From NCBI GenBank assembly GCA_031405795.1, contig JANNJI010000175.1:1-27706 (forward strand): 27,706 bases of DNA, read 5' to 3'. Made by a program: the position numbers and the translations under genes. The DNA is from Gammaproteobacteria bacterium (GTDB taxonomy: Bacteria > Pseudomonadota > Gammaproteobacteria > UBA6429 > Thiohalophilaceae). Below the pieces are notes generated by a model, which worked only from the letters and a program-made list of their open reading frames with translations, did not search any database and was not told the origin of the DNA. Below, one piece after another: positions 7,740 through 25,440 of this stretch. The first letter of the stretch is position 1. Each line of letters opens with the position of its first letter.

Positions 7740-9128
7740 ATGGAACACAGGCTATTAAATCTGATACCTTTTACTTCGCAAATTAACAGTGATGCGGTGT
7801 ACAGAATGATATCAGACATCGGTTACCGGGTGAAAATCGTCAAAAGTGATAACTGGCTATCTTCAATAGCGCTTCAACCAACAAACCTTTCAGTATTATT
7901 ACTTGATAAAGATATATTTCTTCAAGACAAATTACGCACTGCATTGACAAAGGGAAACCGATCTCCAACCTTTGCCATCATAGGCGATCAGAAAATTAAT
8001 GAAAATGTAAAATTGTTGGAATTGTGTGATGATTTCACGACCTGGCCTTGTTACGCGCAGGAATTAACATGCCGCCTTGAACGGCTTGCCAGCCTGGAGG
8101 GGAAATCCTGGAACTCGCCTGCTGATTGTGGGAAAGTACAAGAGGAATTTATTTCACTTAATTTGCTGGGCCAATCGAATAAGTTTGTTCAGTCTCTCAA
8201 TCTTATAAAAAAAGTTGCCCACTGCGATGTGTCGGTGTTCATTGAAGGCGAAACGGGTACTGGTAAAGAAGTTACTGCGCGCGCAATACACTACTTAAGT
8301 GCCAGGCAAAACCATCCTTTCGTGCCGGTCAACTGTGGTGCAATACCGGATAATCTGCTTGAAAATGAATTGTTTGGCCATGAGAAAGGCGCATTTACGG
8401 ATGCAAAAGAGTACCAGCCGGGCCTTATTGCTCAGGCGGATGGCGGAACATTGTTTCTTGATGAAATCGATTCGATGTCACCCAAGGCCCAGGTTGCACT
8501 GTTACGTTTTCTGCAAGATCAGGAATACAGACCCTTGGGCGCTAAAAAATACAAGCAAGCGGATGTCAGAATTATTACGGCAACAAATTCCAATATTCGG
8601 ACGTTGGTTGAACAAGGCGCCTTCCGTGAAGATCTATATTTTCGTATTAATATTATGTCCATAACCTTACCACCGCTGCGTGAGCGAGGCGGTGATATCC
8701 GCATTCTGGCAGAGCATTTTCTGCAACTTTGTCGGGAACACTATCACCAACCTGATAAATTTTTACACAAGAATGCCCTTCGGTGGTTGGAAAATTATAG
8801 TTGGCCCGGAAACGTACGGGAATTGGAAAACACAATACACCGTATGTTTCTTCTCGCAGAGGGAGCCGCAATTCATACTATTCATACTGTAAATGTTGGA
8901 AACGGGCATACTGAGCGTCGAAAAAACCTTCCCGATCGAAGAAATAAATTGTTATTTACCATGGGTTTTAATGAGGCAAAAAACAATATGATTAAGGAAT
9001 TTGAGAAAAATTATCTCTCTGGGTTGATGGCAGAATCACTTGGTAATGTCAGTAAAGCGGCAAAGATCGCAGGTAAAGAGCGGCGCGCATTAGGTAAACT
9101 TCTGAAAAAACATCAAATTAAATCGTGA
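7740..9128 (+). CDS. Sigma-54-dependent transcriptional activator (bEBP): degenerate receiver-like N-terminus, AAA+ domain, Fis-type HTH
   Basis: Walker A GETGTGKE, ENELFGHEKGAFTDA, Walker B LFLDEI, FREDLYFRIN, WPGNVRELEN, C-terminal GNVSKAAKIAGKERRALGKLLKKH. Confidence 0.95.
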   Translation: MEHRLLNLIPFTSQINSDAVYRMISDIGYRVKIVKSDNWLSSIALQPTNLSVLLLDKDIFLQDKLRTALTKGNRSPTFAIIGDQKINENVKLLELCDDFTTWPCYAQELTCRLERLASLEGKSWNSPADCGKVQEEFISLNLLGQSNKFVQSLNLIKKVAHCDVSVFIEGETGTGKEVTARAIHYLSARQNHPFVPVNCGAIPDNLLENELFGHEKGAFTDAKEYQPGLIAQADGGTLFLDEIDSMSPKAQVALLRFLQDQEYRPLGAKKYKQADVRIITATNSNIRTLVEQGAFREDLYFRINIMSITLPPLRERGGDIRILAEHFLQLCREHYHQPDKFLHKNALRWLENYSWPGNVRELENTIHRMFLLAEGAAIHTIHTVNVGNGHTERRKNLPDRRNKLLFTMGFNEAKNNMIKEFEKNYLSGLMAESLGNVSKAAKIAGKERRALGKLLKKHQIKS

Positions 9129-9272: not shown

Positions 9273-10232
9273 TTACTTAGTTTTGCAGGCAATAATTGCG
9301 TCTTGCACTTGACGCCGCAAAGCAATTGTTTGAGAAAAACAACTGGTAGTCACATCCGCATTATTTGAACCTTGGCATAAATTAATAGCTTCATTCCATT
9401 GCCATTTTGTGTTGTTGCCCCGGCTAACATTGCCATGCATAACTTTTTCGAAACACCGGGCTGGCTGGATACTGGTTTCCTTGCCTTTGCAAAGTGACTG
9501 TACATTGGCATCAGACCAAGTTTTATGGCCGGAATAATCCCATGCAATTTTTCCTTGAACGGCATTGTAACAAGTATTCACAGGGAGAGGAGCTATAATA
9601 CCTGTTGATAATTGACGTTGTTCGTTAATAATCGTAGAAATAGGAAGAATGGAAGGGGGCCTTTTTACAGGAGTAGTTGTTGTGGGGGATGCAACGGTTG
9701 TAGCGGGTGTTGCTGGCGTAGCTGGTGAAGTTACGCCAACCGTTGGCGGTTTTGGAGAATCTACATCAGGTTCAGCCATCGCATTCCAGTTTTTAGTTAA
9801 TTTGAATGTACGTGTTTTAACAGGCGTACCATCTCGTGATAACTCAATTTCAATTTGGTTTGAGTCAATTGTACGACCTACCAACGCATCTGACCATGTT
9901 AATGTTAAATCCACTGTCCCACTCATAGTGCCAGGTGTTTCTACGGTACTTGTGATTCCTGGAATGCGCGAACCATTTTTTACAGCTTTTGCTTGAAATT
10001 GAACGCCATCCGGTTTGAATAGATCTTTGTAAAAGACTTGTATAGAAACGGCATTCCCAAGCTTCTGTACTACTTCCATTTTTGTGATTTTAGCCCGATT
10101 ATCAATTTCCTTCCCCGCAGCACTTGAAACCACTCCTCCAAAAAAATCCGTTAATGGACTGCTGCCATCTTCATTTTGCATCGTTGCACACGAAGATATA
10201 CATACACTTAATATTAATATTGCTGACTTCAT
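9273..10232 (-). CDS. Predicted lipoprotein with Pro/Thr linker and C-terminal Cys/Trp repeat domain
   Basis: True start is probably the ATG at 10232 (AGGAGG upstream), not 10304. MKSAILILSVCISSC is lipobox-like. Linker SPATPATPATTVASPTTTTP, then two ~40-aa units each with W..W...LCxG...CF. Confidence 0.7.
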   Translation of the reverse strand: MKSAILILSVCISSCATMQNEDGSSPLTDFFGGVVSSAAGKEIDNRAKITKMEVVQKLGNAVSIQVFYKDLFKPDGVQFQAKAVKNGSRIPGITSTVETPGTMSGTVDLTLTWSDALVGRTIDSNQIEIELSRDGTPVKTRTFKLTKNWNAMAEPDVDSPKPPTVGVTSPATPATPATTVASPTTTTPVKRPPSILPISTIINEQRQLSTGIIAPLPVNTCYNAVQGKIAWDYSGHKTWSDANVQSLCKGKETSIQPARCFEKVMHGNVSRGNNTKWQWNEAINLCQGSNNADVTTSCFSQTIALRRQVQDAIIACKTK

Positions 10233-10449: not shown

Positions 10450-10555
10450 CCGGGTGATGTTTGACCCGGCATGGGTGTAAAGTTACCCATGCCGTAATGC
10501 CATGTTTACTGCTGAATATTTTGTTTTATATAAATAACCGGGTCGGGCGTGACCC
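10450..10555. promoter_or_regulatory. Three palindromic GGGT-N8-ACCC boxes, candidate enhancer (UAS) sites
   Basis: CCGGGT-GATGTTTG-ACCCGG (10450-10469); CGGCATGGGT-GTAAAGTT-ACCCATGCCG (10467-10494); GGGT-CGGGCGTG-ACCC (10540-10555). All lie in otherwise AT-rich DNA. Confidence 0.65.
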
Positions 10556-10616
10556 AGCATTAAAAGTATGAAAATATTAATAGCAACTAATTCAGTAAGT
10601 TAGCGGTAAAAATATT

Positions 10617-10633
10617 TTGGCACATGTATTGCT
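10617..10633 (+). promoter_or_regulatory. Sigma-54 (-24/-12) promoter of the CIS operon
   Basis: TTGGCACATGTATTGCT: GG at 10619-20 and GC at 10631-32 with exact 10-nt spacing, 45 nt upstream of the ATG at 10679. Confidence 0.85.
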
Positions 10634-10678: not shown

Positions 10679-10924
10679 ATGCAAAAAAAAAATCGCAGCG
10701 ATGTTATTTTGGTAGCTAAAGAAATTGATCAGTATTTAGTGGATCACCCAAATGCGGCAGATAGCCTGGAGGGTGTAGTTACTTGGTGGCTGGCTCGGCA
10801 GAGGTATACAAAAGCAACAGATGTTGTGCAACAAGCGTTAGAGCATTTGGTGCGTGAAGGGGTAGTGAAAAAAATTGTTATAAATGGAAACAAAACGGTT
10901 TATGCGCATAAAGAAAAGGATTAA
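10679..10924 (+). CDS. Small winged-helix-like protein (81 aa)
   Basis: YLVDHPNAADSLEGVVTWWL...VQQALEHLVREGVV followed by a beta-hairpin-like end (KIVINGNKTVY). Confidence 0.7.
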   Translation: MQKKNRSDVILVAKEIDQYLVDHPNAADSLEGVVTWWLARQRYTKATDVVQQALEHLVREGVVKKIVINGNKTVYAHKEKD

Positions 10925-10962: not shown

Positions 10963-11532
10963 ATGTTTAATGATTTTGATGCCATATTAAAAAATTTGAT
11001 AGTAAGCGGACTTTCCAATGGTCTGAACGAGAAAAATATTCTATTTGTAACACCTGATGTTGGTTTTAAACCGGAACTTCCTGCAATTAACTGTTTTCTT
11101 TATGACATTCGTGAAAACAGTGAGTTACGTAGTAATGAATGGTTTGTTGACAAAAATGCAGACGGCACAGTGTCAAAAAAACGTGCGCCATTATGGTTGG
11201 ACTGTAGCTATATTATTACGACTTGGGCGACCACTATCGAGAGTGAACATCGTTTGCTTGGGGAGGTGTTCGCAACGTTATTATCCTATGAGGTTAAAGC
11301 AGGTGATTCTTCGAACCATAGCGTTAACAATAGATCAGGAAAAACGTTTTTAAAATTTAATAAAAACATGGCAAATAATATTTATGATATGTGGAATTCG
11401 CTTGGTATTAAACCTCGATCAATGCTTAGTTATACCTTGACTGCCAGTATTGAAAAGCAAGCGCCAGAAAATATAATGCTAGTTAAAGAAAAAGTAATCA
11501 ATATGAATGTTATCAAAGAAATGGCTTTATGA
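10963..11532 (+). CDS. Pvc16/Afp16 (DUF4255) tail terminator/cap protein
   Basis: LPAINCFLYDIRENSELR, PLWLDCSYIITTW, EHRLLGEV, KPRSMLSYTLT. Confidence 0.9.
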   Translation: MFNDFDAILKNLIVSGLSNGLNEKNILFVTPDVGFKPELPAINCFLYDIRENSELRSNEWFVDKNADGTVSKKRAPLWLDCSYIITTWATTIESEHRLLGEVFATLLSYEVKAGDSSNHSVNNRSGKTFLKFNKNMANNIYDMWNSLGIKPRSMLSYTLTASIEKQAPENIMLVKEKVINMNVIKEMAL

Positions 11533-11534
11533 TG

Positions 11535-11565
11535 ACCGATCTTATGTAAGATACGGTATTTTTTT
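11535..11565 (+). terminator. Intrinsic terminator-like hairpin inside the operon
   Basis: ACCG-ATCTT-ATGT-AAGAT-A-CGGT followed by ATTTTTTT directly after the pvc16 stop. Confidence 0.45.
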
Positions 11566-11621
11566 GCATAGTTATATATTTAATCACAGCAGTGCCAGGA
11601 TATTATTAAGGAGAAAATGTT

Positions 11622-12944
11622 ATGGCAAATTATCTATCGCCGGGAGTTTATGTTCATGAGGTTCCTTCAGGCACGGCACCAATTAACGGTGTTGGAACAT
11701 CTACCGCTGGATTTATTGGTATCTTCGCTGATGTCATCCAAATTCCTTTTGAAAACCCTGACTATGATCCATCCAAGAAGGCTACTGAATCGGAAGCTGA
11801 ACCAGTTGATATGGCTGAGCCTGCGCCGGGCGCCGCTGCAAGAAGACGTGCGGCCAGAACAACAAGTGGTCAAAACAGTCCTTTTATAACGAAAGAGTTT
11901 AAACCAATCGATGCTGGTGAAGTTAAATTAGTCACCAATAAAAGCGAATTCAGAAAATTTTTTGGTGATTTTTCAACTGATGACGGCCATGGAAAATTGC
12001 TGCATGCGGTTAATGGATTTTTTGATAATGGTGGAACACGCTGTTTTGTTGTGCGCGTAAAAGAAAAATCCAAGATACTTACTACTGCGCTGGAAAAATT
12101 CGAATCCATCGATGAAATTTCTATCGTCGCGGCGCCCGGTATCGCCGATGCAGACGTACGTAGCGCACTTGTTACGCATTGTGAAAAAATGGGTGACAGA
12201 TTCGCAATATTGGATTGTGCGGAAGAAACCGAGACTGATGGAACCTTTGATCGGGATAAACTCAGTGAACCGCAGGATTCAAACTATGCTGCAGTGTATA
12301 TTCCCTGGTTTCGTGTTTTTGATCCGGCATTAAAAATCACCAATCCAGACGGAAATGGCAAACGTTATATTGCGCCGAGTGGTCACATTGCTGGTATTTA
12401 TGCACGTGTTGATGCTGAACGTGGGGTGCATAAGGCGCCAGCAAACGTAGTAATCAGAGGGGTGGCGAGCCCGGATGATCTTAAGTATCGCCTGAGCAAG
12501 GCACAGCAAGATGGATTAAATCCTGTTGGGATTAACTGTATACGCCACATAAATGGGAATGTGAAGGTGTGGGGCGCGCGAACCATCGGTGGCGCCAGAA
12601 ATGATGAATGGACATATGTATCAGTGCGACGACTGTTTCTTTATCTACGTGAATCTATTGATGAGGGCACCCAGTGGGTCGTATTTGAACCAAACACGCC
12701 TAACCTTTGGGCAAAAATAACGCGAAATATTACCGCCTATTTGACCAACGTATGGCGCGATGGTGCATTGTTTGGCAACAGCCCGCAAGAGGCTTTTTAT
12801 GTCAAATGTGATGCAGAAACAAATCCACCGGAAATACGTGATTTGGGACAGGTTGTAACTGAAATTGGTGTTGCTGTTGCCAGACCGGCAGAGTTTGTTG
12901 TATTCCGTATCAGTCAATGGCAAGCAGAAGCAACAGCCGAATAA
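11622..12944 (+). CDS. Contractile tail sheath protein 1
   Basis: YLSPGVYVHE, FFDNGGTRC, AAVYIPW, PSGHIAGIYARVDAERGVHKAPAN, VWGART, YVSVRRLF, RPAEFVVFRI. Confidence 0.96.
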   Translation: MANYLSPGVYVHEVPSGTAPINGVGTSTAGFIGIFADVIQIPFENPDYDPSKKATESEAEPVDMAEPAPGAAARRRAARTTSGQNSPFITKEFKPIDAGEVKLVTNKSEFRKFFGDFSTDDGHGKLLHAVNGFFDNGGTRCFVVRVKEKSKILTTALEKFESIDEISIVAAPGIADADVRSALVTHCEKMGDRFAILDCAEETETDGTFDRDKLSEPQDSNYAAVYIPWFRVFDPALKITNPDGNGKRYIAPSGHIAGIYARVDAERGVHKAPANVVIRGVASPDDLKYRLSKAQQDGLNPVGINCIRHINGNVKVWGARTIGGARNDEWTYVSVRRLFLYLRESIDEGTQWVVFEPNTPNLWAKITRNITAYLTNVWRDGALFGNSPQEAFYVKCDAETNPPEIRDLGQVVTEIGVAVARPAEFVVFRISQWQAEATAE

Positions 12945-12982
12945 TATAAATCCATTATCGGAAAAAACAGACCAGGAAAAAA

Positions 12983-14122
12983 ATGTCACAATATTATTCG
13001 CCCGGTGTTTACATACGAGAAATCGTTCCGCCACCCGCGCCTGGGTTGCAGACGGGCGTACCTGTTTTTATTGGCTACACACGATGCTCGCCAAATAAGA
13101 CAGATGATCAATCATCCTATGTGCTTACCAGCTGGCAGGATTTTCTGCAAAAGTTTGGAGAGCCGGTAACGACAGGTTTCCTGGGTTATGTGGTACAGGG
13201 ATTTTTCGAAAATGGCGGTAAGATTTGTTACGTTTATCCACTCGAGGGTGATATTGAAATTGCATTACGACGGTGTTTGGAATTTTTGGAGTCATGGGAA
13301 GAATGCGATCTTGTGTGTGCGCCAGATGTGATGCTAAATCCAGAAAATGCTATCGAGTTACAAAGGGCATTACTGGACCATTGTGAAAAACAAGGTAATC
13401 GATTTGCCGTACTGGATTCGCTTCACGCAAGTGATGAACATACCGTGGTACGGCAGCGGCAAGCACTGCGCTCGAATAACGGCGCACTTTATTATCCCTG
13501 GGTGGTTGTGAGTTCTGATACTGAGCCATGCGGTAAGGTTGTCCCGCCGTGTGGGCATGTCGCCGGGGTTTATGCAAGCACTGATAGGCAGATTGGCGTA
13601 CACAAAGCTCCGGCAAATGTGCAGCTTAAAGGTATTGTCGGTATTGAAAGTGATATTAATGTTGAGATACAAGATCGTTTAAATCCACACGGGATTAACT
13701 GTTTACGTATTTTTCCAGGCAGAGGTATTCGTATTTGGGGCGCAAGAACATTGAGTGCTACACCAACCTGGCGTTATATCAATGTGCGGCGGCTTTTAAT
13801 GAGTGTGGGATGCTGGTGCGATAAAAATCTATCCGATATTGTATTTGAAATTAATCATCCAAGATTATGGGCTCGCCTTGAACGTGCATTAACGGCCTAT
13901 TTAACAGAATTATTCATGCGTGGAGCATTGCAGGGTAAGTCAGCGCGTGAAGCGTTCTATGTTAAATGTGATGCCGACACAAACACTGTCAATATGATAA
14001 ATGCAGGAACAATTATAACTGAAATCGGGCTGGCACCATCAGTGCCAAGTGAATTTGTTGTAATGCACATTGTACATAGCAACAACGGTGTTCATTTATT
14101 AGATCGTATCTGGAATACATAA
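12983..14122 (+). CDS. Contractile tail sheath protein 2
   Basis: YYSPGVYIRE, FFENGGKIC, GALYYPW, PPCGHVAGVYA, GVHKAPAN, IWGARTL, YINVRRL, PSEFVV. Confidence 0.95.
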   Translation: MSQYYSPGVYIREIVPPPAPGLQTGVPVFIGYTRCSPNKTDDQSSYVLTSWQDFLQKFGEPVTTGFLGYVVQGFFENGGKICYVYPLEGDIEIALRRCLEFLESWEECDLVCAPDVMLNPENAIELQRALLDHCEKQGNRFAVLDSLHASDEHTVVRQRQALRSNNGALYYPWVVVSSDTEPCGKVVPPCGHVAGVYASTDRQIGVHKAPANVQLKGIVGIESDINVEIQDRLNPHGINCLRIFPGRGIRIWGARTLSATPTWRYINVRRLLMSVGCWCDKNLSDIVFEINHPRLWARLERALTAYLTELFMRGALQGKSAREAFYVKCDADTNTVNMINAGTIITEIGLAPSVPSEFVVMHIVHSNNGVHLLDRIWNT

Positions 14123-14141
14123 ATTATCAAGGAGAAAAGAC

Positions 14142-14597
14142 ATGGCAACAGGAGAACGAAGAGATCCTTACCGGCAATATAACTTCATTGTAGAAATGGA
14201 TGGTATAACCCGCGCTGGGTTTAAGGAATGTTTTGGTTTGGATTCAAGTCAGGACATTGTTAATTATCGCGAAGGCGGTGAAAAATTGTCGGTTCGGCAA
14301 TTGCCAGGATTGGTCAGATATTCAAGGATTGTTCTTATGCGGGGGGTTACCGATGATCCTGAGCTATGGAATTGGCGTAAAGATGCGCAAGATGGAAAGA
14401 TTAAACGCAAAAATGGCTCTATCGTTTTATTGGACGACACAGGCGCAGAAAAAGGTCGTTGGAACTTTACTGATGCATGGCCGGTGAAGTGGGTTGGCCC
14501 GCACTTTAATGCCACAGGTAGCGAGGTTGCGATTGAAACGCTTGAACTGACACATGAAGGCCTCGATAAAATAATGCAGGCAAAAGCGGGTAAGTAA
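14142..14597 (+). CDS. Tail tube protein 1 (T4 gp19-like, Afp1/5)
   Basis: DPYRQYNFIVE, YREGG, LPGL, IVLMRGVT, WNFTDAWPVKWVGP, AIETLELTHEG. Confidence 0.95.
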   Translation: MATGERRDPYRQYNFIVEMDGITRAGFKECFGLDSSQDIVNYREGGEKLSVRQLPGLVRYSRIVLMRGVTDDPELWNWRKDAQDGKIKRKNGSIVLLDDTGAEKGRWNFTDAWPVKWVGPHFNATGSEVAIETLELTHEGLDKIMQAKAGK

Positions 14598-14630
14598 TAA
14601 AGTGGAAGTCAACATAGGTATGGCGATCAG

Positions 14631-15107
14631 ATGCAAATAAATGTCAGAAAAGATCCCTATTTAGCCTTTAATTTTCTGGTTGAAATTGATGGCCTGCAAG
14701 TGGGTGGGTTCAATGAAGTCGAAGGTTTGCATCTTAAGGTTGAAACCATCGCTTATTGCGAAGGCGGTGGCGGTGGGACTGTGTATCATTTGGCAGGCGA
14801 GCCTCGTTATGGTTGTGTCACCTTAAGTCGCGGTATGACAACGTCAATGGATCTGTGGGATTGGGTATTAAAAACTGTCGAAGGTGAGATTGTTCCGCGT
14901 CAGGTATCGATTGTTTTACGGAATATAGATCCGGAGTTGGAAGAAACACGTTGGAACCTCGCAAATGCATGGCCGCGCGAATGGAAGGCAGGCTGTTTTA
15001 ATGCGTTGAAAAGTGCTTTTTCAATAGAAAGCTTGTCATTGGTATTTGGCAGTATAAAACGAGAAATAGGCAATGTTAAACAAGTTAAAGAAAATATTAC
15101 TGCTTAA
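14631..15107 (+). CDS. Tail tube protein 2 (gp19-like)
   Basis: DPYLAFNFLVEIDG, FNEVEGL, VTLSRGMT, WNLANAWPREWKA, IESLSL. Confidence 0.92.
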   Translation: MQINVRKDPYLAFNFLVEIDGLQVGGFNEVEGLHLKVETIAYCEGGGGGTVYHLAGEPRYGCVTLSRGMTTSMDLWDWVLKTVEGEIVPRQVSIVLRNIDPELEETRWNLANAWPREWKAGCFNALKSAFSIESLSLVFGSIKREIGNVKQVKENITA

Positions 15108-16131
15108 GCTCGAGCGTATACTGCGGAATTGGGCAGATGCAATCCTGAAACTAGTGACAATTCCACCGTCAGTGGACGAAATCAGCAATGATTCAGTAAA
15201 CGGCGAAGCCGTGTTGGATATGCCTGGTGAACAAGAGCCGCGCAATTCAAAAGAAACGAATTATGTAGCAGCGGAAAATATAAATAAAGAATTAATGTCG
15301 CGCCCAATAGTCACTTTTTCTAATACAGTTGACCTGGAAATAATGCCACAATCCGCAGCGGATGTTAACGAAAGTAGTGTAACTCCCACCAGTCTGCAGT
15401 CACCAGTTAATGATAGTGGTGCTGCTACACGTGGGGTTGTTGCAACGGAAAAAGAGAGGGACATAAAACCATTTTTAAATGAAACGGTACGGGAAATGGT
15501 CGGCGCGGGGTATGGCCAAGTTAAAACACAAAAAGATAAGTATAAAATCGAGAACTATATTACAGACGGTGGCATTCAATACCAACCAGCTGCATATAAC
15601 AAACACGAAATTCAGCAACACTATAGCCTTTTAGCAACAGGCCATTCCGATGATGATGGCTATAAAGCCGCATCATTAACGTTAAGCATTGTAAAACGTG
15701 AAAAATACAATGCATTTTATGCTGAATTTTACAACGAAAAAAACATATTCGATAAATCAGACGTCTGTATTGATGAGCCGCAAGAAAAAATAAATTTTAC
15801 ACGAAATATTGCAGAACATGTTCAGCATATTCCAGCATCAATCGTAAAGGGTAATTTCTATATTGCTGAAAAATCAATATCGGAGTCGGGCATAAAGACT
15901 GATCCAGGAGCAAGGCATTGGCCGGAACTTGGCGAATCCGCGCCAATAATTCATATTAATGATGGACATAACTCAAGCGGTAATGTGCAACATTGGCCGG
16001 AATTTCCCTTGATGGATCAAGTAATTGATACAGCGTATGTACATGAAATGTCGCATGCCGATTATTACCGTGAGCTTATGCATCGTCGTGAGCTGGATAT
16101 GGAACAACAAGGTCAAGTATGGAACGCGTAG
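15073..16131 (+). CDS. Hypothetical CIS-associated protein, mostly low-complexity
   Basis: Fills the gap between tube 2 and Afp7 and overlaps both. Amphipathic N-terminal helix and two HWPE motifs near the C-terminus. Confidence 0.7.
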   Translation: MLNKLKKILLLKLERILRNWADAILKLVTIPPSVDEISNDSVNGEAVLDMPGEQEPRNSKETNYVAAENINKELMSRPIVTFSNTVDLEIMPQSAADVNESSVTPTSLQSPVNDSGAATRGVVATEKERDIKPFLNETVREMVGAGYGQVKTQKDKYKIENYITDGGIQYQPAAYNKHEIQQHYSLLATGHSDDDGYKAASLTLSIVKREKYNAFYAEFYNEKNIFDKSDVCIDEPQEKINFTRNIAEHVQHIPASIVKGNFYIAEKSISESGIKTDPGARHWPELGESAPIIHINDGHNSSGNVQHWPEFPLMDQVIDTAYVHEMSHADYYRELMHRRELDMEQQGQVWNA

Positions 16132-16844
16132 CATTTCTGATTGAGAGCAGCGGCGAGCGCTTGGGATGCATGTTAAATCCCGGAAGCCTGGTTTTAAGAC
16201 GCCGTGCAGGGATAAAGTCACGTGAGTCAGTTGGCGGATTTATTACGGGCACTGAATTAGCCGATGAGCCATTGCAGTTAACTAATGGTGGCTGCACGGA
16301 GTTGACACTTGATCTGTTATTTGACGTGTCGTTACCAGGCTCATCGATCACGAGCAATGATGTCAGGGACTTAACCCGGCCGCTCTGGAATTTAGCGGAA
16401 AACACCAAGCAAGTCGACATGAACAAAAAACTCCCGTTGTGCTGTTTCCTGTGGGGTAAACAATGGAATATTCCAGGGGTCATCACAGCCATTGCCGAGC
16501 GGCTGGAGTTTTTTACACCGTCTGGTTTACCCAGGCGTTCCTGGTTGCGCCTGATATTAAGGCGTGTTGCCTCATCTGCGACACTGGCGCCAATGAATAA
16601 TATTGAAACTCAATTGCCTGATTTGGAACAAGCGGAATTCGATTTTCAAAATACGCTGATTGCCAGCGAAGAAAGTGATACTGAAGTTAAGATTACCGCG
16701 GTATCCGGTGAACGGTTGGATCAACTTGCCTATCGGTATTATGGTGATACACGATTCTGGCGGCATCTGGCCATATTTAATGATATTACCAATCCGTTGG
16801 ATTTAGCGGGTGGCGATTCAATCGAAGTACCGGCTTTAACATAA
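16119..16844 (+). CDS. Afp7/Pvc7-like tube initiator with C-terminal LysM domain
   Basis: MLNPGSL, TELTLDLLFD, FLWGKQW, ERLEFF..SGLPRR; LysM-like GERLDQLAYRYYGDTRFWRHLAIFNDITNPL. Confidence 0.88.
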   Translation: MERVAFLIESSGERLGCMLNPGSLVLRRRAGIKSRESVGGFITGTELADEPLQLTNGGCTELTLDLLFDVSLPGSSITSNDVRDLTRPLWNLAENTKQVDMNKKLPLCCFLWGKQWNIPGVITAIAERLEFFTPSGLPRRSWLRLILRRVASSATLAPMNNIETQLPDLEQAEFDFQNTLIASEESDTEVKITAVSGERLDQLAYRYYGDTRFWRHLAIFNDITNPLDLAGGDSIEVPALT

Positions 16845-16849
16845 GGATT

Positions 16850-18427
16850 GTGGTTATGGATATGTTAGTTTCGCTGCCGAAGTTAACCATCGAAATAAAT
16901 GGGACGGCTATGTCAGTTGCCGATGGGCGTGTGTTGTCGGGTTTACGGGTTCAACAGCGCCTTTCGTTGCCAACCTTGTGTGAAATGACTTTCATAGATC
17001 CAGATGGAACTATCGCAACGTCAAATCAATTAATAATAGGCGCAGAATTATATATTTCTATTGACAGCCAAAACACATCGCTGTTCCAAGGGCAAATTAC
17101 CGCGATAGAGTATGATTACGGCTCTTCAAATGATAGAACAGTTCGAATACGTGGTTATGATAATCTCCACCAACTTCGTAAACGTCAACCCGTGTGTGCA
17201 CATGTCGAAGTAACCCTTGTTGAATTGGCGCGGACATTTTCAGCGAGCCTAGGGATGTCAGTTGCAGCAACTGAAAGCGGGCCGGTCTGGAAAAAGCTTG
17301 TGCAGTTTCGCCAATCCGATCTGGAATTTATGACGGAACTTTCTGAGCGTTGCGGCTTGTACTTTACGCTACGAAATAATGTGTTGCAGTTTCTGACCTT
17401 AAAAGGGTTTGGCGAACCGGCTCTATTAGCACTGGGTGACTCGTTGCTTGAGGCGCGCGTTGTTGCAAATGGTGATCCTGCATGTCATTCCGTAACAACA
17501 ACAGGATGGGATCCTTGGTTAGCCGCAGAACACAGCGGTTATGCCAGTGTGGCGCGTGTTGGCCGTTCAGTAACTACCGAGATTCCAGCGGACAGCGTTG
17601 GTGGGACAGGTGAGCGGATACTGGTTGACGAAGTTGTTCAAAATGCCAGCCAGGCTGAGGTTATTGCCCAGGCCGAGCTTGATCGACGCGTGGCAGGAGC
17701 GGTGGTTTTTTTTGGCGTTGCTACCGGCAACGCGCAATTGCAGCCAGGTATACCGATCACTGTCAGTGGTATCGCAGATGCGATTAGTGGTAATTATGTA
17801 TTAACAGCGGTTACGCACACGATTGATCATAAACATGGGTTTTTGTCGATACTTGAAACCGCTCCGCCTCCGAACAGCAAAAAGAAACATAGCACGGCAA
17901 CTACCGTGGGTATTGTTACGCGGGTTGACGATCCGGAGGGCCTTGGTCGAATTCGTGTGAAGCTGCCAAATTACAATAATATCGAAACGGATTGGTTACA
18001 AATTGTGGCGCCGGGTGCAGGCAAAGATAAAGGTATTATTGCCTTAAACGACATTGGTGATCGGGTTTTACTTGTGTTTAATCACGGTGATCCTGCACAG
18101 GCTATTGTACTCGGTGGTCTTTATGGCTCTGTGTCACCACCCGATGCGGGTGTGGTCAATGGTGCAATTCGCCGTTATCTTTTTCAGACGCCTGGTGGGC
18201 AACGTATAAAACTGGATGATGAAAAAGATACGGTAGCCATTTCTAACGGCAAAGGCACAACAGTTAGCTTGTCGCCTGGCAGAGCAAAAATCACCAATAG
18301 CGATGGCAGTTATATCGAACTATCCCGTGAAAAACTCACCATCCATTCCAAAGTTAAGCTGGAGATCGAAGCGCCAGGACAGGCAATAGTCATGCGTGGC
18401 CAATCGATTGATTTTGCGAGGGCATGA
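16850..18427 (+). CDS. VgrG-like spike / baseplate hub (Afp8-like, gp27-gp5 fusion)
   Basis: LFQGQITAIE, QFRQSDLEF, YVLTAVTH, OB-fold GIVTRVDDPEGLGRIRVKLP, DIGDRVLLVF..GDPAQAIVLGGLY. Start may be the ATG at 16856 (better RBS spacing). Confidence 0.92.
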   Translation: MVMDMLVSLPKLTIEINGTAMSVADGRVLSGLRVQQRLSLPTLCEMTFIDPDGTIATSNQLIIGAELYISIDSQNTSLFQGQITAIEYDYGSSNDRTVRIRGYDNLHQLRKRQPVCAHVEVTLVELARTFSASLGMSVAATESGPVWKKLVQFRQSDLEFMTELSERCGLYFTLRNNVLQFLTLKGFGEPALLALGDSLLEARVVANGDPACHSVTTTGWDPWLAAEHSGYASVARVGRSVTTEIPADSVGGTGERILVDEVVQNASQAEVIAQAELDRRVAGAVVFFGVATGNAQLQPGIPITVSGIADAISGNYVLTAVTHTIDHKHGFLSILETAPPPNSKKKHSTATTVGIVTRVDDPEGLGRIRVKLPNYNNIETDWLQIVAPGAGKDKGIIALNDIGDRVLLVFNHGDPAQAIVLGGLYGSVSPPDAGVVNGAIRRYLFQTPGGQRIKLDDEKDTVAISNGKGTTVSLSPGRAKITNSDGSYIELSREKLTIHSKVKLEIEAPGQAIVMRGQSIDFARA

Positions 18428-18765
18428 TGAAAATAATGACACAAGATGCAATCGTCGTATGTGCGCATGAAACCGGTATTGTTGGGATTATAGCGACACA
18501 AAACCTGGTGACCGTCACAGGTCGAGGGGTTTTAGTCGAAGCCGATCCGGAACAACGCCCAATTGTGGGCTGCCCAATGGTGGGTGTCGGTATTTTTCCG
18601 TGCCTTCAAACATTGAGAGTCCAGGCTGGTTATTCCGATTTAATTCGAATTGAAAATCGTCGAGTGTGCCTGGATACCGTGACGGGGCTTACCAATGGAA
18701 CACCACCGGGCACCGTCATCTATAAAGTACGCAAACCAGGCCAGGATTTAGTTTCGGAGGTGTAA
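18424..18765 (+). CDS. Probable spike-tip protein (PAAR-like / Afp10 position)
   Basis: Small beta-rich ORF between spike and gp25 with CAH, GCP, PC and VC metal-ligand candidates. No literal PAAR motif. Confidence 0.65.
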   Translation: MMKIMTQDAIVVCAHETGIVGIIATQNLVTVTGRGVLVEADPEQRPIVGCPMVGVGIFPCLQTLRVQAGYSDLIRIENRRVCLDTVTGLTNGTPPGTVIYKVRKPGQDLVSEV

Positions 18766-18766
18766 T

Positions 18767-19183
18767 GTGGCTATAAAAAATCGTGCAGTGTATTTTCACC
18801 ATCCGGATTTCGATTCGATCGACAGCATGGCAGGTTTACAGATTACCAAAAATGGTGGTCTGCAAATGGTTGACGAAGATGCCTCGGTGCGCCAAGCGAT
18901 ATTATTAATATTATCCACTGCAAAAGGCGAACGAGTAATGCGGCATGATTACGGGTGTGATTTGGATCAATTGGCATTTATGCCAACAGATGAGACAACA
19001 CTCGGTCTGGCCATTCATCTTGTACGCCAGGCATTGAGACAATGGGAGCCGAGGATTGATATCCTGCACTTGGATGCGGAGTTTAATAAAAACGAATCCT
19101 CCAGGATGGATATTATGCTGAATTACCGCGTTCGTCGTACTTCAGCCACTGGCAACATGATTTTTCCAATAACTATGTCGTAA
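18767..19183 (+). CDS. GPW/gp25 baseplate wedge protein (Afp9-like)
   Basis: SVRQAILLILSTAKGERVMRHDYGC, ALRQWEPRI. GTG start. Confidence 0.93.
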   Translation: MAIKNRAVYFHHPDFDSIDSMAGLQITKNGGLQMVDEDASVRQAILLILSTAKGERVMRHDYGCDLDQLAFMPTDETTLGLAIHLVRQALRQWEPRIDILHLDAEFNKNESSRMDIMLNYRVRRTSATGNMIFPITMS

Positions 19184-19193
19184 ACAGAATAAT

Positions 19194-21797
19194 ATGACGC
19201 TACCAACGCCTAAACTTGATGACCGCAGATTCGACGACCTTGTCGCTGAGGGACGCCGTAGAATTGCACAACGCTGCCCCGAATGGACCGATTTAACGGT
19301 AAACGATCCTGGCATGATGTTGTTAGATGTATTTGCGTATTTAACAGACATCATGATGTTTCGGTTGAATCAAGTGCCGGAAAAAAATTATGTGCGTTAT
19401 TTACAACTGATTGGTGTGCAAATACAGCCGCCGGCTGCTGCAAGTGTCCGGCTGACATTCAAAGCGAGTCGTCCACAGGATAAGCCATTGGAAATTAAGC
19501 GTGGCACACGGGTGACAACCGCGCATGCAACAGGAAGCTCCGGCTCACCCGTGTTTGTAACTGCAGAGACGATTACTCTGGCCGAGGGTGCAATACAATC
19601 CGAAGTGATGGCCTATCACTGTGACATGATCGAAACAGAATTTGCCGGTTATGGTACCGGCATGCCGGGCTTGGCTATATCCGCACGCCAACCACCTATT
19701 GTTGCGCCGATTGGCGATAGTTTAAACCTTGTTGTTGCCGTTGAGGCTATTCACGAAGAGTTGGAAGTAGGCACCGCAGCGATAAACCATGAAGGAAAAA
19801 CCTATCGAGTTTGGCGTGAGGTGGAAGATTTCAGTAATGTGGGTGATGATAAATATGTTTATGTTGCCGACCGGACCAATGGCGTTATCAATTTTGCCCC
19901 CGCATTGCGCATGCAAAAGAAAGGCGGCGCGTTGGCGGAATTACCAGAAGCCTTGGCAGCCATTCCTAAAGATGGCGCAGGCATTCTGCTGTCATATTTT
20001 CGCGGCGGTGGTATGGAAGGCAATGTCAGTGCCAAAACATTAACTGTACTGAAAGATCCTTTACCCGGTCTTGATGTTAGCAACGCCGACCCTGCCACGG
20101 GTGGGCGTGCAGTCGAAAGCCTGGAAAATGCCTTATTACGAGGTCCGATTGAGCTTCATTCCTTACGTCGGGTGGTGACCGCCAGAGATTTTGAGTTGGT
20201 CGCAACACGCAATTCCGGCGCAATTGAACAAGCGCAGGCCTTTACCAAAGCGACACAATGGTGTTTTGCAACACCTGGCACCGTACAAATATTATTGGTC
20301 CCGCAGGTACCAAAAGAAATGCGCGGGGCATTTGGTCAGGTTACTGTCGAGACGTTACAAAAGCATCAGACCGATACGGCACGCATACAGATACAACAGA
20401 TTATCGATGAAAGAAAGCCCATGGGAATTACCACAGAGGCGATTTGGACACGACTCAAAACGGTTCAAGTAAAGGCGCGTGTTATTGTGCATCGCGAGGA
20501 AGACGCAGCAGCAGTGAAACAGCGTTTATTACAACGACTCTATCAAACCATCAGCCCCTTAGCGACACCACCCAATGTCAAAGCGTGGTCGTTTGGCCGA
20601 TCCTTAACAGGTTGGGATGTTTATAAGATCATGAGTTATGAACCTGGCGTCATCTCTGTCGCGCAGGTTCGTCTTGTCGTTGAGAATGCACCTGATAAAG
20701 CAGTGCGTGCACTCGCCGCAGATATGTATCAGCCTGACACGTGGTATGTTGGTGAAGAAAACATGTGCTTCAGAACATTAAATAATGCCAATGGCTGGGA
20801 AACTGTCGGGCAGTTTAACGGTGAAGTGATCGATTTAATCAAACCGTATCCGCCGGAGATTGGTGCGCTATCAAAACATGCAGGCCTGGTAGCGATTGCG
20901 ACGCGGTTAGATGGAGAAAAGTCTGGCTCACGCTTGCATTTTTCACGTGACTGTGGAGAGAGTTGGGAGTTGGGCCCACAAACGAAATTTCATATTCAAG
21001 ATATGGCTTGGATCGAGCGTGACGGTGTTGCCAATCTATTGCTTGCCACCGAGTTAGGTTTGTTTCAAGTTGAAGCAAAACCCGGTGCGGTGCCGCGACA
21101 AATCGTGGTGGATGAGGCGAGTAAAGATCTTGGTTTTGTGGCGGTGGTTGTCGCGACCGGTGCCTGGGGTGGTACCAGTGTTGCTGTGGCGGCACGCGGC
21201 GAACGAGGTGTGTTTCTTTCATCCGAAGGTGGCCGACCAAATACATTCAAACCAATTGGTCTTGATGGTGAGGTGATTCCTGTACTTGCCGTGCAACGAC
21301 GTGACCTGGATCAATATTTATGGGCGGGGGTTGCTGCGCCCGGAGATCAAGCTGGCACGGGTTGTTATCGTTGGCGCCTGACCGGTTCAGTGGAAAATAA
21401 TGAAGGCTGGCGGCCTTATAACACAGGTTGGAAAGGCGGTAGTTGCCGTTCATTGGCCTTTCAACGTTCGCGTATTTTTGCGGCTACATCACGATTAGGC
21501 GTTTTACGCTTGGATGTGGATGCACAAGATCCAACCTGGTTGATTCCAGACGTGAGTTGTGGATTGCCACTACATGAAGTCGGCAGATTGGAAATTGTGG
21601 ACAGTGTCGTGACAGATCCGGCAGGAAAGTTTGTCATCGCGGCAGGAATAAAAGGTATTTATCGTAGCGAGGACAGTGGTGTTAACTATGTTAAGTGTTC
21701 CAACAATGAGTTTACGGATGAAGTGACGCTGCCAAAAACGTGGTTGTTTTGTTCTGCCGAACATGACATAGAGGTGGTCAGCGAAGATGAAGCATAG
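19194..21797 (+). CDS. Baseplate J-like assembly protein (Afp11-like) with inserted beta-propeller
   Basis: LPTPKLDDRRFDDL, WTDLTVNDPG, RLNQVPEK, NADPATGG..ES, RRVVTARDFE. From about aa 500 there are Asp-box-like motifs (SRDCGESW, SEDSGVNY). Confidence 0.92.
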   Translation: MTLPTPKLDDRRFDDLVAEGRRRIAQRCPEWTDLTVNDPGMMLLDVFAYLTDIMMFRLNQVPEKNYVRYLQLIGVQIQPPAAASVRLTFKASRPQDKPLEIKRGTRVTTAHATGSSGSPVFVTAETITLAEGAIQSEVMAYHCDMIETEFAGYGTGMPGLAISARQPPIVAPIGDSLNLVVAVEAIHEELEVGTAAINHEGKTYRVWREVEDFSNVGDDKYVYVADRTNGVINFAPALRMQKKGGALAELPEALAAIPKDGAGILLSYFRGGGMEGNVSAKTLTVLKDPLPGLDVSNADPATGGRAVESLENALLRGPIELHSLRRVVTARDFELVATRNSGAIEQAQAFTKATQWCFATPGTVQILLVPQVPKEMRGAFGQVTVETLQKHQTDTARIQIQQIIDERKPMGITTEAIWTRLKTVQVKARVIVHREEDAAAVKQRLLQRLYQTISPLATPPNVKAWSFGRSLTGWDVYKIMSYEPGVISVAQVRLVVENAPDKAVRALAADMYQPDTWYVGEENMCFRTLNNANGWETVGQFNGEVIDLIKPYPPEIGALSKHAGLVAIATRLDGEKSGSRLHFSRDCGESWELGPQTKFHIQDMAWIERDGVANLLLATELGLFQVEAKPGAVPRQIVVDEASKDLGFVAVVVATGAWGGTSVAVAARGERGVFLSSEGGRPNTFKPIGLDGEVIPVLAVQRRDLDQYLWAGVAAPGDQAGTGCYRWRLTGSVENNEGWRPYNTGWKGGSCRSLAFQRSRIFAATSRLGVLRLDVDAQDPTWLIPDVSCGLPLHEVGRLEIVDSVVTDPAGKFVIAAGIKGIYRSEDSGVNYVKCSNNEFTDEVTLPKTWLFCSAEHDIEVVSEDEA

Positions 21798-22332
21798 CGA
21801 TATTCAAAAACTACTGCCGGAAGTTTATCAGCGTGGCTTGCAGACGGGTAAACCACTGGATGCATTATTGGATGTCATGATTGGCATGTTTTCGCCGTCA
21901 GAAACGGTATTGGAAAAAATTGATACGTATTTTAGCCCTTATACGGCGCCGGATGCATTTGTCCGCTACCTGGCGAAATGGGTTGATCTTGATCGCTATC
22001 TTGGCACAACAACAGAGCGATCGTCTTCATCACAATTGGCCCCGGTGGTAATAGAACCTGGGCGCTTACGTGAACTTGTTGCGAAAGCGGCAGAGTTGTC
22101 ACAATGGCGTGGCACCGCCAAAGGATTACAGGTTTTTTTAGAAACAGCAACAGGCGTCCGTGGTTTTATAATTGATGAGGCGGTGACAGATAAAGACAGT
22201 ACCAAGCGAGTTTTTCATATTCTGATTCGCGCCCCACAGGCCGCGTCACAATACCAACAACTCATTACCCGAATTGTCAATGGTGAAAAACCGGCATATG
22301 TCACTTACGAACTTGAGTTTAGCCAGATTTAA
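21787..22332 (+). CDS. Phage tail protein (P2 gpI-like) baseplate component
   Basis: LLPEVYQ, FSPYTAPDAFVRYLAKWV, RLRELV, WRGTAKGLQVFLE, EKPAYV. Confidence 0.88.
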   Translation: MKHSDIQKLLPEVYQRGLQTGKPLDALLDVMIGMFSPSETVLEKIDTYFSPYTAPDAFVRYLAKWVDLDRYLGTTTERSSSSQLAPVVIEPGRLRELVAKAAELSQWRGTAKGLQVFLETATGVRGFIIDEAVTDKDSTKRVFHILIRAPQAASQYQQLITRIVNGEKPAYVTYELEFSQI

Positions 22333-22346
22333 CAAGGAGAAAATGT

Positions 22347-23714: not shown

Positions 23715-24161
23715 AGAATGAGAAGCAAATTACATTGTATGGAAAAAATAATGACCATTTTTTGTTTACTCTGGCCGCTGTCTTGAAGCAGGTTAAATGT
23801 ATATGAGGAGAAAGTTATGGCAACAATAACGACGATTCAATTGCCGGAAGGCGATAAACGAAGTATTAAGATAAAACTAGGCGAGCGTGCGGAAAAAACC
23901 TTTACGGTTACTAACGTCTACGGCTCCCGCTTGCGCATTGGCTTTCAAACTCAGTTTGACAGTCCACAGCAAAAGAAATGGGCAAAACCTAAAGAACCGG
24001 TTGAACGTGATTTGGGTGATCAGGGATCAGAACAAGTTACGCTTGTCATCGATGTACCGAAGGATGCGGCGCCTGGCAAATACAACCTTAAATTACTGGT
24101 CTATTCGCTGAAAGATCCCAACCTCGACTTTACGTTGTCAGATCCCATTGTTATAGAGGTT
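22347..24161 (+). repeat. Duplicated N-terminal module (22347-22691 and 23817-24161)
   Basis: Manual alignment gives 95 of 115 identical residues between the two N-termini. Confidence 0.95.
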
Positions 24162-24734: not shown

Positions 24735-24831
24735 GCTGAATGTGAATAGTTAATACCAGCGCGGTGAATAAATATATGGAAACATGCAAACGGTAACACT
24801 AGAGTCATAAAACAAATAGTATGGAAACAGT

Positions 24832-25410: not shown

Positions 25411-25440
25411 TGTGTAACGAGATGCACACAGGGAAATGAC

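What the first reader, a model, noticed from the sequence alone, without database searches (positions are those of the whole stretch)
10450..10633. Complete candidate sigma-54 control circuit for a CIS: activator gene, three GGGT-N8-ACCC boxes and -24/-12 promoter
Seen: TTGGCAC-N5-TTGCT with exact spacing, and three copies of the same palindrome about 60-170 nt upstream of it. Two copies are adjacent, one has 10-bp arms, and an AT-rich spacer separates them from the promoter. A bEBP gene lies about 1.3 kb away. Established: bEBPs bind tandem palindromic UAS about 80-150 bp upstream of sigma-54 promoters; AFP and PVC are instead known for RfaH/NusG-type control. Inference: this defines the binding motif and regulon of an uncharacterised bEBP and offers a way to switch the CIS on.
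Basis: partly seen in the sequence, partly recalled or inferred. Interest (0 to 1): 0.75.

Follow-up and report, generated by a model that had tools for sequence, protein, structure and literature searches.

The report
Sigma-54 on-switch for injection machine
In front of a phage-tail-like injection-machine operon of an uncultured freshwater-sediment bacterium lies a complete sigma-54 switch (activator gene, its palindromic DNA sites and a -24/-12 promoter); the same layout recurs before such machines in many other bacteria, and I found no paper describing this control for them.

Summary
Three exact GGGT-N8-ACCC palindromes (10452-67, 10473-88, 10540-55) lie upstream of an exact TGGCAC-N5-TTGCT element (10618-33). 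This is the only cluster of that palindrome in the 3.7-Mb genome, which also encodes rpoN.

The promoter heads a small winged-helix gene ("sm81", 10679-10924) followed by the contractile injection system (CIS) genes.

- **Same design elsewhere:** 13 other loci with an sm81 homologue, from several families and two classes, have it. A sigma-54-like promoter precedes sm81. A proximal box starts 77-83 bp upstream of TGG (68 bp in one locus, beyond the contig end in another). A distal box lies about 160-180 bp upstream. An orthologous activator gene and sheath or tube genes lie nearby wherever the contig reaches.
- **Activator helix tracks the box:** seven aligned activators at loci with exact boxes share the recognition helix ALG(K/R)L(L/M)KK. 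Five with other helices lack exact boxes.
- **Activator:** it has a receiver fold lacking the acidic pocket and conserved lysine, and a GAFTDA loop, a published natural variant.
- **sm81 family:** large (about 4,600 clusters) and has no Pfam model.

No RNA data exist, so the start site and rpoN dependence are untested. This scan noted similar cassettes before on other DNA. It is a new variant of a known kind, closest to VasH/RpoN control of type VI secretion.

The parts
7740..9128 (+). bEBP gene (462 aa). Residues 1-120 form a receiver-fold domain that lacks the acidic pocket and the conserved Lys. Then come an AAA+ sigma-54 interaction domain with a GAFTDA loop and a C-terminal Fis-type HTH with helix KERRALGKLLKK.
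   Evidence: Pfam PF00158 224 bits, AAA_lid_14, HTH_8 19.8 bits. NCBIfam alignments run to the last residue. Sequence. REC-fold model pLDDT 79.6, best PDB matches FixJ-N, NtrX and NtrC1 receivers. The G002 orthologue is 63% identical.
9273..10232 (-). Intervening lipoprotein gene (320 aa from ATG 10232, preceded by an aggagg ribosome-binding site). Probably not part of the circuit. It separates the activator gene from its sites only in this genus.
   Evidence: A homologue is present in G002 (45% identity) and absent between the bEBP gene and sm81 in the other loci.
10452..10467 (.). UAS box 1 (distal), GGGT-N8-ACCC. Starts 166 bp upstream of TGG; centre about -184 from the predicted start site.
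10473..10488 (.). UAS box 2, 21 bp (two helical turns) from box 1. Perfect 10-nt arms at 10467-10494.
   Evidence: A third box 20-21 bp beside the distal one is also seen in L024, L031 and L040.
10540..10555 (.). UAS box 3 (proximal). Starts 78 bp upstream of TGG; centre about -96.
   Evidence: A proximal box lies at 77-83 bp in 12 loci including this one, and at 68 bp in one more.
10556..10617 (.). A+T-rich spacer (77% A+T) with an IHF-like site at 10567-10579 (one mismatch). Probable DNA-bending segment.
   Evidence: Not significant in this copy (115 of 500 shuffles do as well). Exact IHF consensus is present in L031 and L035, and the spacer is A+T-enriched against G+C-rich surroundings in L029, L033, L040 and L041.
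10618..10633 (+). Sigma-54 promoter TGGCAC-N5-TTGCT. GG is at 10619-20 (-25/-24) and GC at 10631-32 (-13/-12). Predicted start site about 10644.
   Evidence: rpoN is present. Equivalent elements precede sm81 homologues in the loci listed.
10679..10924 (+). sm81: first gene behind the promoter, an 81-aa stand-alone winged-helix protein of a large family with no Pfam model.
   Evidence: Model pLDDT 78.6, H-S-H-H-hairpin topology, nearest fold Fur/PerR DNA-binding domains (TMq 0.80, Foldseek E 9e-3). 4,600 representative clusters at E<=1e-3. No Pfam family at curated cut-off.
10963..27706 (+). CIS operon on the same strand: Pvc16_N tail terminator, two sheath genes, two tube genes, LysM-tube, VgrG-like spike, gp25, Baseplate_J, P2_I, PASTA and membrane proteins. 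It runs off the contig end.
   Evidence: Pfam hits. No convincing intergenic terminator.

Best explanation
This is a dedicated sigma-54 switch for the contractile injection system. The proposed steps follow.

1. RNA polymerase carrying sigma-54 sits as a closed complex on TGGCAC-N5-TTGCT (10618-33).
2. Dimers of the linked activator (7740-9128) bind the three GGGT-N8-ACCC palindromes through their C-terminal Fis-type HTH.
3. The activator assembles into an AAA+ ring.
4. It reaches the promoter by looping over the A+T-rich, possibly IHF-bent, spacer.
5. It uses ATP to open the promoter.
6. Transcription then starts near 10644 and reads through sm81 and the whole CIS operon.

What is shown: the sequence elements, their statistics, the presence of rpoN, the activator's domains, and conservation of the layout in other genomes. 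What is inferred: binding, looping, the start site and co-transcription.

The input signal is unknown. The activator's receiver domain lacks the acidic pocket and lysine needed for phosphorylation, so control is probably by a partner protein or by the activator's own level.
For: - **Elements and statistics:**
- **rpoN in the genome:** 235 bits.
- **Activator:** PF00158 at 224 bits, with Walker A GETGTGKE, Walker B LFLDEID and GNVRELEN intact. GAFTDA and GAYTDA are listed among motif variations expected to retain activator function (PMC4641369).
- **Same-genus genome G002:** proteins are only 43-79% identical and the intergenic DNA is unalignable by eye. It still has TGGTAC-N5-TTGCA, a box starting exactly 78 bp upstream of it and another at 164 bp, next to the 63%-identical activator.
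- **Wider sample:** sm81 homologues were found in 12 of 401 class-sampled and 4 of 401 phylum-sampled genomes, both counts including this one. With four distinct metagenome contigs this gave 19 loci examined. Fourteen, including the window, have a box within one mismatch at the proximal or distal position: W, L006, L024, L027-L031, L033, L035, L036, L037, L040, L041. Fifteen have a promoter match of at least 9 of 11 consensus letters with both GG and GC.
- **Gene neighbours:** activator and sheath/tube genes flank sm81 wherever the contig is long enough.
- **HTH tracks the box:** seven of seven aligned activators at loci with exact boxes share ALG(K/R)L(L/M)KK. Five of five with a different helix lack exact boxes.
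- **Dedicated regulator:** in the own genome the only box-plus-promoter pairs are here, apart from one weak pair on C296 that is probably chance. A looser pattern in five genomes recovers each CIS site against a control-level background.
Against: - No transcript data: no RNA run holds this DNA.
- An exact promoter match alone is near chance genome-wide: 5 found, about 3.5 expected by my arithmetic.
- The IHF-like site in this copy is not significant.
- The loci are related, so counts across them overstate independence, and the helix-to-box correlation could partly reflect shared ancestry.
- HTH_8 scores below Pfam's cut-off (19.8 against 22 bits).
- There is no obvious Shine-Dalgarno before ATG 10679.
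- Five loci (L025, L026, L032, L034, L042) have no such box, and L042 also has no sigma-54-like promoter.
Confidence: 0.8

Rival explanations
1. The palindromes are read by the small winged-helix protein sm81, as autoregulator or co-activator, rather than by the sigma-54 activator. Alternatively both proteins bind there.
For: sm81 has a Fur/PerR/MarR-like winged-helix fold. It co-occurs with the boxes as strictly as the activator does.
Against: - The boxes sit at the classic enhancer distance from a -24/-12 promoter.
- sm81's exposed residues vary among loci that keep the same box. The RQR patch is lost in L027, L029, L030, L031 and L033.
- The family's pI ranges from 4.5 to 10, and half the members are acidic.
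- The activator's recognition helix tracks the box.
- sm81 has no evident dimerisation domain for a 16-bp palindrome.
Confidence: 0.08
2. The -24/-12 match is fortuitous. The operon is driven by a sigma-70 promoter, and the palindromes are operators of an unrelated regulator, possibly serving the divergent lipoprotein gene.
For: Exact consensus matches occur at near-chance frequency in the genome. Sigma-70-like hexamers exist in the region, for example at 10368-10397 (+) and 10448-10420 (-). Box 1 abuts the latter.
Against: Those hexamer hits are at shuffle level, 14 found against 11.6 expected. The sigma-54 element and its fixed distance to the box are conserved in loci that have no lipoprotein gene and no alignable spacer. 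A cognate activator gene is always adjacent.
Confidence: 0.06
3. The palindromes act as RNA hairpins (terminators or attenuators) or are a dispersed repeat element, not protein-binding sites.
For: Box 2 has 10-nt perfect arms. Box 3 followed by a T-rich run on the minus strand is flagged terminator-like.
Against: - No gene reads into them on either strand.
- Across loci only GGGT and ACCC are kept, while the outer arms and the loop change without compensation.
- The motif is not dispersed: 34 copies genome-wide, below the mononucleotide expectation of 55.
Confidence: 0.02

Closest known systems
Sigma-54 plus cluster-encoded activator control of type VI secretion (VasH/RpoN in Vibrio cholerae, PMC3439928; Bernard et al. 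2011, PMC3133059, seen only in that paper's reference list; RpoN control of P. aeruginosa T6SS, PMC3804575, seen only as a title and abstract)
   Same: A contractile, phage-tail-derived machine whose gene cluster carries its own bEBP, which acts through RpoN on promoters of structural genes.
   Different: - The machine here is not a T6SS. It has Phage_sheath_1, Pvc16_N and gp19-type tube genes, and its nearest Pvc16_N relatives are cyanobacterial.
- The promoter heads the whole operon, whereas VasH drives hcp operons but not the main cluster.
- The cassette includes a conserved small winged-helix first gene and a defined GGGT-N8-ACCC enhancer.
- Homology of this activator to VasH beyond the shared AAA+ core was not tested.
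Published eCIS regulators: RfaH-type (AnfA1 for Afp), GerE/LuxR-type and BTAD-domain proteins (Geller et al. 2021, PMC8213781)
   Same: Regulator genes placed next to extracellular-CIS-type operons and proposed as master switches.
   Different: The mechanism is different: enhancer-dependent open-complex formation rather than antitermination or sigma-70 activation. No NusG, GerE or BTAD domain was found among the window's ORFs scanned. That paper does not mention sigma factors (0 occurrences).
PspF-PspA and HrpS-HrpV type circuits, in which a product of the sigma-54-dependent operon binds the activator's AAA+ domain. This comparison rests on my own knowledge and was not checked in a paper here.
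   Same: The activator has no working sensory domain, and the first gene of the controlled operon is a small protein. Complex prediction gives weak support for contact with the AAA+ domain.
   Different: sm81 is a winged-helix protein, unrelated in fold to PspA or HrpV. Binding is unproven and the sign of any feedback is unknown.

Membership tests
Sigma-54 (RpoN)-dependent promoter | GG and GC doublets with exact spacing, matching TGGCAC-N5-TTGCW | tested here: met
   11 of 11 specified letters at 10618-10633.
Sigma-54 (RpoN)-dependent promoter | rpoN encoded by the same genome | tested here: met
   PF04552 at 235 bits, in a 505-aa open frame on contig C540.
Sigma-54 (RpoN)-dependent promoter | Intergenic, oriented towards a gene, conserved at orthologous loci | tested here: met
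   45 nt before ATG 10679. Equivalent elements precede sm81 homologues: 15 of 19 loci score at least 9 of 11 with both GG and GC.
Sigma-54 (RpoN)-dependent promoter | Start site about 12 nt after GC; expression needs rpoN and an activator | not testable with these tools
   No RNA run holds this DNA.
Bacterial enhancer-binding protein (NtrC-type AAA+ activator) | Sigma-54 interaction AAA+ domain with Walker A, Walker B and sensor motifs | tested here: met
   PF00158 at 224 bits against a 20.2-bit cut-off. GETGTGKE, LFLDEID, REDLYFR and GNVRELEN are present and invariant in 12 orthologues.
Bacterial enhancer-binding protein (NtrC-type AAA+ activator) | GAFTGA loop that contacts sigma-54 | tested here: met
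   The loop is GAFTDA here. Of 12 orthologues, 10 have GAFTDA or GAYTDA, L032 has GAYTHA and L037 has GAFTGA. These variants are listed as expected to keep activator function; DVU2106 with GAFTDA has assigned targets (PMC4641369). Function of this copy is untested.
Bacterial enhancer-binding protein (NtrC-type AAA+ activator) | C-terminal Fis-type HTH that binds upstream palindromes | tested here: inconclusive
   HTH_8 scores 19.8 bits, below the 22-bit cut-off. NCBIfam full-length models align to residue 461. The helix tracks the box sequence. Binding itself is not testable here.
Two-component response regulator (phosphorylated receiver) | Receiver domain with acidic pocket, phospho-acceptor Asp and conserved Lys | tested here: not met
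   A REC fold is present, but there is no Response_reg hit even at E<=10. By my reading of the alignment, the beta1 acidic pair is absent, Lys is replaced by Trp (..WPC), and the Asp position is not conserved among orthologues. No histidine kinase was found among the window ORFs scanned.
Type VI secretion system regulated by VasH/Sfa-type activators | The controlled cluster is a T6SS | tested here: not met
   Pfam gives Phage_sheath_1, Pvc16_N, Phage_T4_gp19, CIS_tube, Baseplate_J and Tail_P2_I. No T6SS-specific family appeared among the hits. It works like the T6SS case but is not a member.
RfaH/NusG-, GerE- or BTAD-type eCIS regulation | A gene with one of these domains in or next to the operon | tested here: not met
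   None among the 30 window ORFs scanned against Pfam. The last ORFs, from 26203 to the contig end, were scanned against NCBIfam only and gave no hit.

The most novel reading that the evidence does not exclude
The activator and sm81 form a portable two-gene switch with built-in feedback. sm81, made from the very promoter the activator opens, would bind the activator's AAA+ domain through its most conserved surface (residues 23-43, the ..AADSLEG..WW.. patch). It would thereby limit or lock in firing. This would be a new winged-helix class of bEBP partner, spread over thousands of protein clusters and several CIS subtypes. It would also be a general handle for waking silent injection systems.
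Probability: 0.3. Interest if true: 0.75.

Novelty: new variant of a known kind. Interest (0 to 1): 0.6.

Why it matters
Non-T6SS contractile injection systems are widespread, and what switches them on is largely unknown. The published regulators are RfaH-, GerE- and BTAD-type proteins (PMC8213781). It is my understanding, not checked here, that most such systems are silent in culture and are being developed as protein-delivery tools.

Three things follow from this finding:
- A self-contained sigma-54 cassette with a defined 16-bp enhancer, fixed spacing and a dedicated activator gives a directly testable switch. Expressing the activator, or a version without its receiver domain, in an rpoN-positive host should turn on a reporter or the operon.
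- It extends the known sigma-54 link of type VI secretion to a different branch of phage-tail-derived machines.
- It singles out a large, uncurated family of small winged-helix proteins whose members sit behind sigma-54 promoters.

Tried and rejected
- **RNA evidence for the start site.** No RNA run holds the stretch. Only DNA runs from freshwater-sediment, sediment and unspecified metagenomes in three studies do.
- **Extra regulon members.** Box plus strict promoter in the own genome gave only this locus and one weak pair on C296. A looser pattern in five genomes gave 1-4 hits each against 1-2 for the reversed-pattern control, and the non-CIS hits look like coding sequence. No further target is claimed.
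- **IHF site in this copy.** One mismatch at 10567-79, at chance level. Kept only as compatible.
- **Terminator or hairpin reading of the boxes.** Rejected.
- **Internal near-consensus sigma-54 sites.** Those at 20019, 21170 and 23224 are at chance level.
- **Word-based homologue search with sm81.** Found only 6 proteins. The profile search was needed.
- **Pvc16_N scan of genome contigs.** Returned only cyanobacterial loci, which lack sm81 and the activator. They serve as context and gave nothing on the promoter.
- **Complex prediction, activator plus sm81.** Weak support only. Score 0.43, best of 3 controls 0.00. In the calibration the mark was reached by 58 of 80 solved complexes and 2 of 110 mismatched pairs. 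Scores of 0.60 or under were seen in only 7 of those 80 solved complexes and in both mismatches that passed. My own alignments were used, so the counts hold only roughly. This is not treated as evidence of binding.
- **Literature.** Six searches found no paper linking sigma-54, RpoN or bEBPs to non-T6SS CIS. The library lacks most subscription journals, so absence is not proven.
- **Genome G063.** It is flagged unpublished.

Full report
**Observation**

The window is one whole contig (C175) of a fragmented metagenome-assembled genome: 881 contigs, 3.7 Mb, 94% complete. DNA runs that hold the stretch come from freshwater-sediment, sediment and unspecified metagenomes.

- GGGT-N8-ACCC occurs at 10452-67, 10473-88 and 10540-55 and nowhere else in the window. 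Shuffles expect 0.31, and none of 100 reaches 3.
- The genome holds 34 copies, fewer than the mononucleotide expectation of 55. This is the only place with two or more within 200 bp.
- Box 2 has perfect 10-nt arms.
- TGGCAC-N5-TTGCT lies at 10618-33 with no mismatch.

An exact promoter match is not rare by itself. The genome has 5, and about 3.5 are expected by chance on my arithmetic. The case rests on context and conservation, not on the match.

**Surroundings**

- 7740-9128 (+) encodes a 462-aa bEBP with Sigma54_activat (224 bits), AAA_lid_14 and a sub-threshold HTH_8. NCBIfam models align to its last residues.
- 9273-10232 (-) is a lipoprotein gene. Its real start is ATG 10232, behind an aggagg ribosome-binding site.
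- Behind the promoter, all on the + strand to the contig end, come:
  - an 81-aa ORF (sm81, 10679-10924);
  - a Pvc16_N tail terminator, two sheath genes and two gp19-type tube genes;
  - a LysM-tube protein, a VgrG-like spike, gp25, Baseplate_J and P2_I;
  - membrane proteins.
- No convincing intergenic terminator interrupts this run.
- rpoN is present on contig C540.
- With GG at 10619-20 and GC at 10631-32, the predicted start site is about 10644. The box centres then lie near -96, -163 and -184.

**Conservation, the main evidence**

A same-genus genome (G002) has the same operon at 43-79% protein identity. Its activator is 63% identical and its sm81 is 71% identical. Its intergenic DNA is not alignable by eye. 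It nevertheless has TGGTAC-N5-TTGCA, one box starting exactly 78 bp upstream of TGG, as in the window, and a second at 164 bp.

sm81 was then used as a marker. Homologues turned up in 12 of 401 class-sampled and 4 of 401 phylum-sampled genomes, both counts including this one. A profile search of 1.84 billion representative proteins gave 4,600 clusters at E<=1e-3 and 2,538 at E<=1e-10, so the family is large. It has no Pfam model. Four representatives were looked up on their contigs.

In all, 19 loci were examined, excluding the unpublished G063.
- **Promoter.** Fifteen have an element matching at least 9 of 11 consensus letters with both GG and GC. It lies 28-63 nt before the called sm81 start on the metagenome contigs and 57-183 nt before the aligned part of sm81 in the genome loci.
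- **Boxes.** Fourteen (W, L006, L024, L027-L031, L033, L035, L036, L037, L040, L041) have GGGT-N8-ACCC within one mismatch. A proximal box starts 77-83 bp upstream of TGG in 12 of them and at 68 bp in L031. L036 has one at 90 bp, where the contig ends. L037 has only the distal one. Distal boxes lie at 150-180 bp.
- **Third box.** One lies 20-21 bp beside the distal box in W, L024, L031 and L040.
- **Chance.** By my arithmetic an exact box inside a 7-bp window at one locus is expected about once in 10,000 loci.
- **Neighbours.** Where contigs are long enough, an activator gene (40-63% identical) lies beside sm81 and sheath and tube genes follow.
- **Modularity.** L037 has a different gene order with an AAA ATPase, so the cassette is not tied to one CIS subtype.
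- **Contrast.** The nearest Pvc16_N relatives, in cyanobacteria, have neither sm81 nor the activator.

**Who reads the boxes**

In an alignment of 12 activators, the seven at loci with exact boxes share the recognition helix (K/N)ER(R/S)ALG(K/R)L(L/M)KK. The five with other helices (TFDK, ALFE, AFTR, ALRR, TFGK) lack exact boxes. Some of those five show related palindromes such as GGGG-N8-CCCC. These loci are related, so this is suggestive and not a proof.

sm81 is a stand-alone winged helix. Its model has pLDDT 78.6, and the nearest folds are Fur/PerR DNA-binding domains (TMq 0.80, Foldseek E 9e-3). Its exposed residues vary among loci that keep the same box. The family's pI runs from 4.5 to 10. 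I therefore rate sm81 as box reader at about 8%.

**The activator**

- The AAA+ motifs are intact and invariant in the alignment.
- The sigma-54 contact loop is GAFTDA or GAYTDA in 10 of the 12 orthologues. These variants are listed as expected to retain function in the Desulfovibrio sigma-54 regulome paper (PMC4641369).
- Residues 1-120 fold as a (beta-alpha)5 receiver. The model has pLDDT 79.6 and its best matches are FixJ-N, NtrX, NtrC1 and RitR.
- No Response_reg hit appears even at E<=10.
- By my reading of the alignment, the acidic pair after strand 1 is missing, the conserved Lys is Trp, and the Asp position is not kept among orthologues.
- No kinase gene was found among the window ORFs scanned.
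- In one family (L027, L030) the activator has no receiver at all.

The input is therefore probably not phosphorylation.

**Spacer**

The 62 nt between box 3 and the promoter are 77% A+T, with a one-mismatch IHF-like site that is not significant in this copy. L031 and L035 carry exact IHF consensus sites (0 of 500 shuffles do as well). In G+C-rich loci the spacer is clearly A+T-enriched, for example 0.67 against 0.37 in L040. This fits a bending segment.

**Regulon**

In the own genome the only box-plus-promoter pairs are the three here and one weak pair on C296. A looser pattern in five genomes recovers each CIS site against a control-level background. The activator looks dedicated to this operon. 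The caveat is that the own genome is fragmented.

**Possible feedback**

Complex prediction of activator plus sm81 gave weak support.
- The score was 0.43 and the best of 3 controls 0.00.
- In the calibration the mark was reached by 58 of 80 solved complexes and 2 of 110 mismatched pairs.
- Scores of 0.60 or under were seen in only 7 of those 80 and in both passing mismatches.
- My own alignments were used, so the counts hold only roughly.

The predicted interface uses sm81 residues 23-43, its most conserved stretch, and the activator's AAA+ domain (137-141, 177-196, 232-236). I keep a PspA/HrpV-like feedback as the novel reading at about 30%.

**Comparison with what is known**

Mechanistically this is a textbook enhancer-dependent promoter. 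The nearest biological precedent is sigma-54 plus cluster-encoded bEBP control of type VI secretion (VasH/RpoN, PMC3439928; Bernard et al. 2011, cited there). The machine here is not a T6SS.

For the extracellular-CIS type, the survey of Geller et al. 2021 names RfaH, GerE and BTAD regulators and does not mention sigma factors. Chen et al. 2019 mentions no sigma factor or promoter. Six full-text searches found no paper linking sigma-54, RpoN or bEBPs to these systems.

Earlier agents of this scan reported similar sigma-54 cassettes before CIS operons in other genomes. Those are unchecked AI notes. My own loci agree with them.

**Verdict**

It is a new variant of a known kind. Confidence is 0.8 that this is a working sigma-54/bEBP switch for the operon. 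Start site, rpoN dependence, DNA binding and the signal remain to be shown at the bench.

Noticed in passing
window 9273-10232 (-): Lipoprotein gene: lipobox ..ISSC, a Thr/Pro-rich linker, a Cys-rich C-terminal domain and a weak Cna_B hit. It is inserted between the activator gene and its enhancer sites only in this genus. The G002 homologue is 45% identical; elsewhere the activator gene abuts the enhancer. The longest ORF call (TTG 10304) is probably too long; ATG 10232 has an aggagg ribosome-binding site.
   Followed up: partly
window 10651-10677 (+): An 8-codon mini-ORF (ATG..TAA) lies in the predicted 5' leader between the expected start site (about 10644) and the sm81 start. There is no clear Shine-Dalgarno before sm81.
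   Followed up: no
L034 1221-5353: On a metagenome contig the activator-sm81 cassette, with an 11/11 sigma-54 promoter, is followed by a 182-aa ORF and a Bac_transf sugar transferase rather than recognisable CIS genes. The cassette may also drive other gene sets. The contig ends at 7.6 kb.
   Followed up: no
L027 12571-13605 and L030 1996-3009: In two genomes of one family the orthologous activator lacks the N-terminal receiver domain altogether (337-344 aa). It sits divergently or about 5 kb upstream of sm81. The boxes and their spacing are the same.
   Followed up: partly
L025, L026, L032, L037 upstream of sm81: Loci whose activators have a different HTH helix carry other palindromes at enhancer distance: GGGG-N8-CCCC, GGGCA-N4-TGCCC and AGGACA-N4-TGTCCT. 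This hints at a readable helix-to-site code within this activator subfamily.
   Followed up: partly
window 20019-20034 (-), 21170-21185 (+), 23224-23239 (+): One-mismatch sigma-54-like elements lie inside CIS genes, without boxes upstream. With these the window has 4 matches within one mismatch, 1.78 expected, and 5 of 100 shuffles reach 4. They are probably chance.
   Followed up: no
window 7535-7819 (-): A 94-aa ORF overlaps the start of the activator gene on the opposite strand. It has no family hit and is probably spurious.
   Followed up: no
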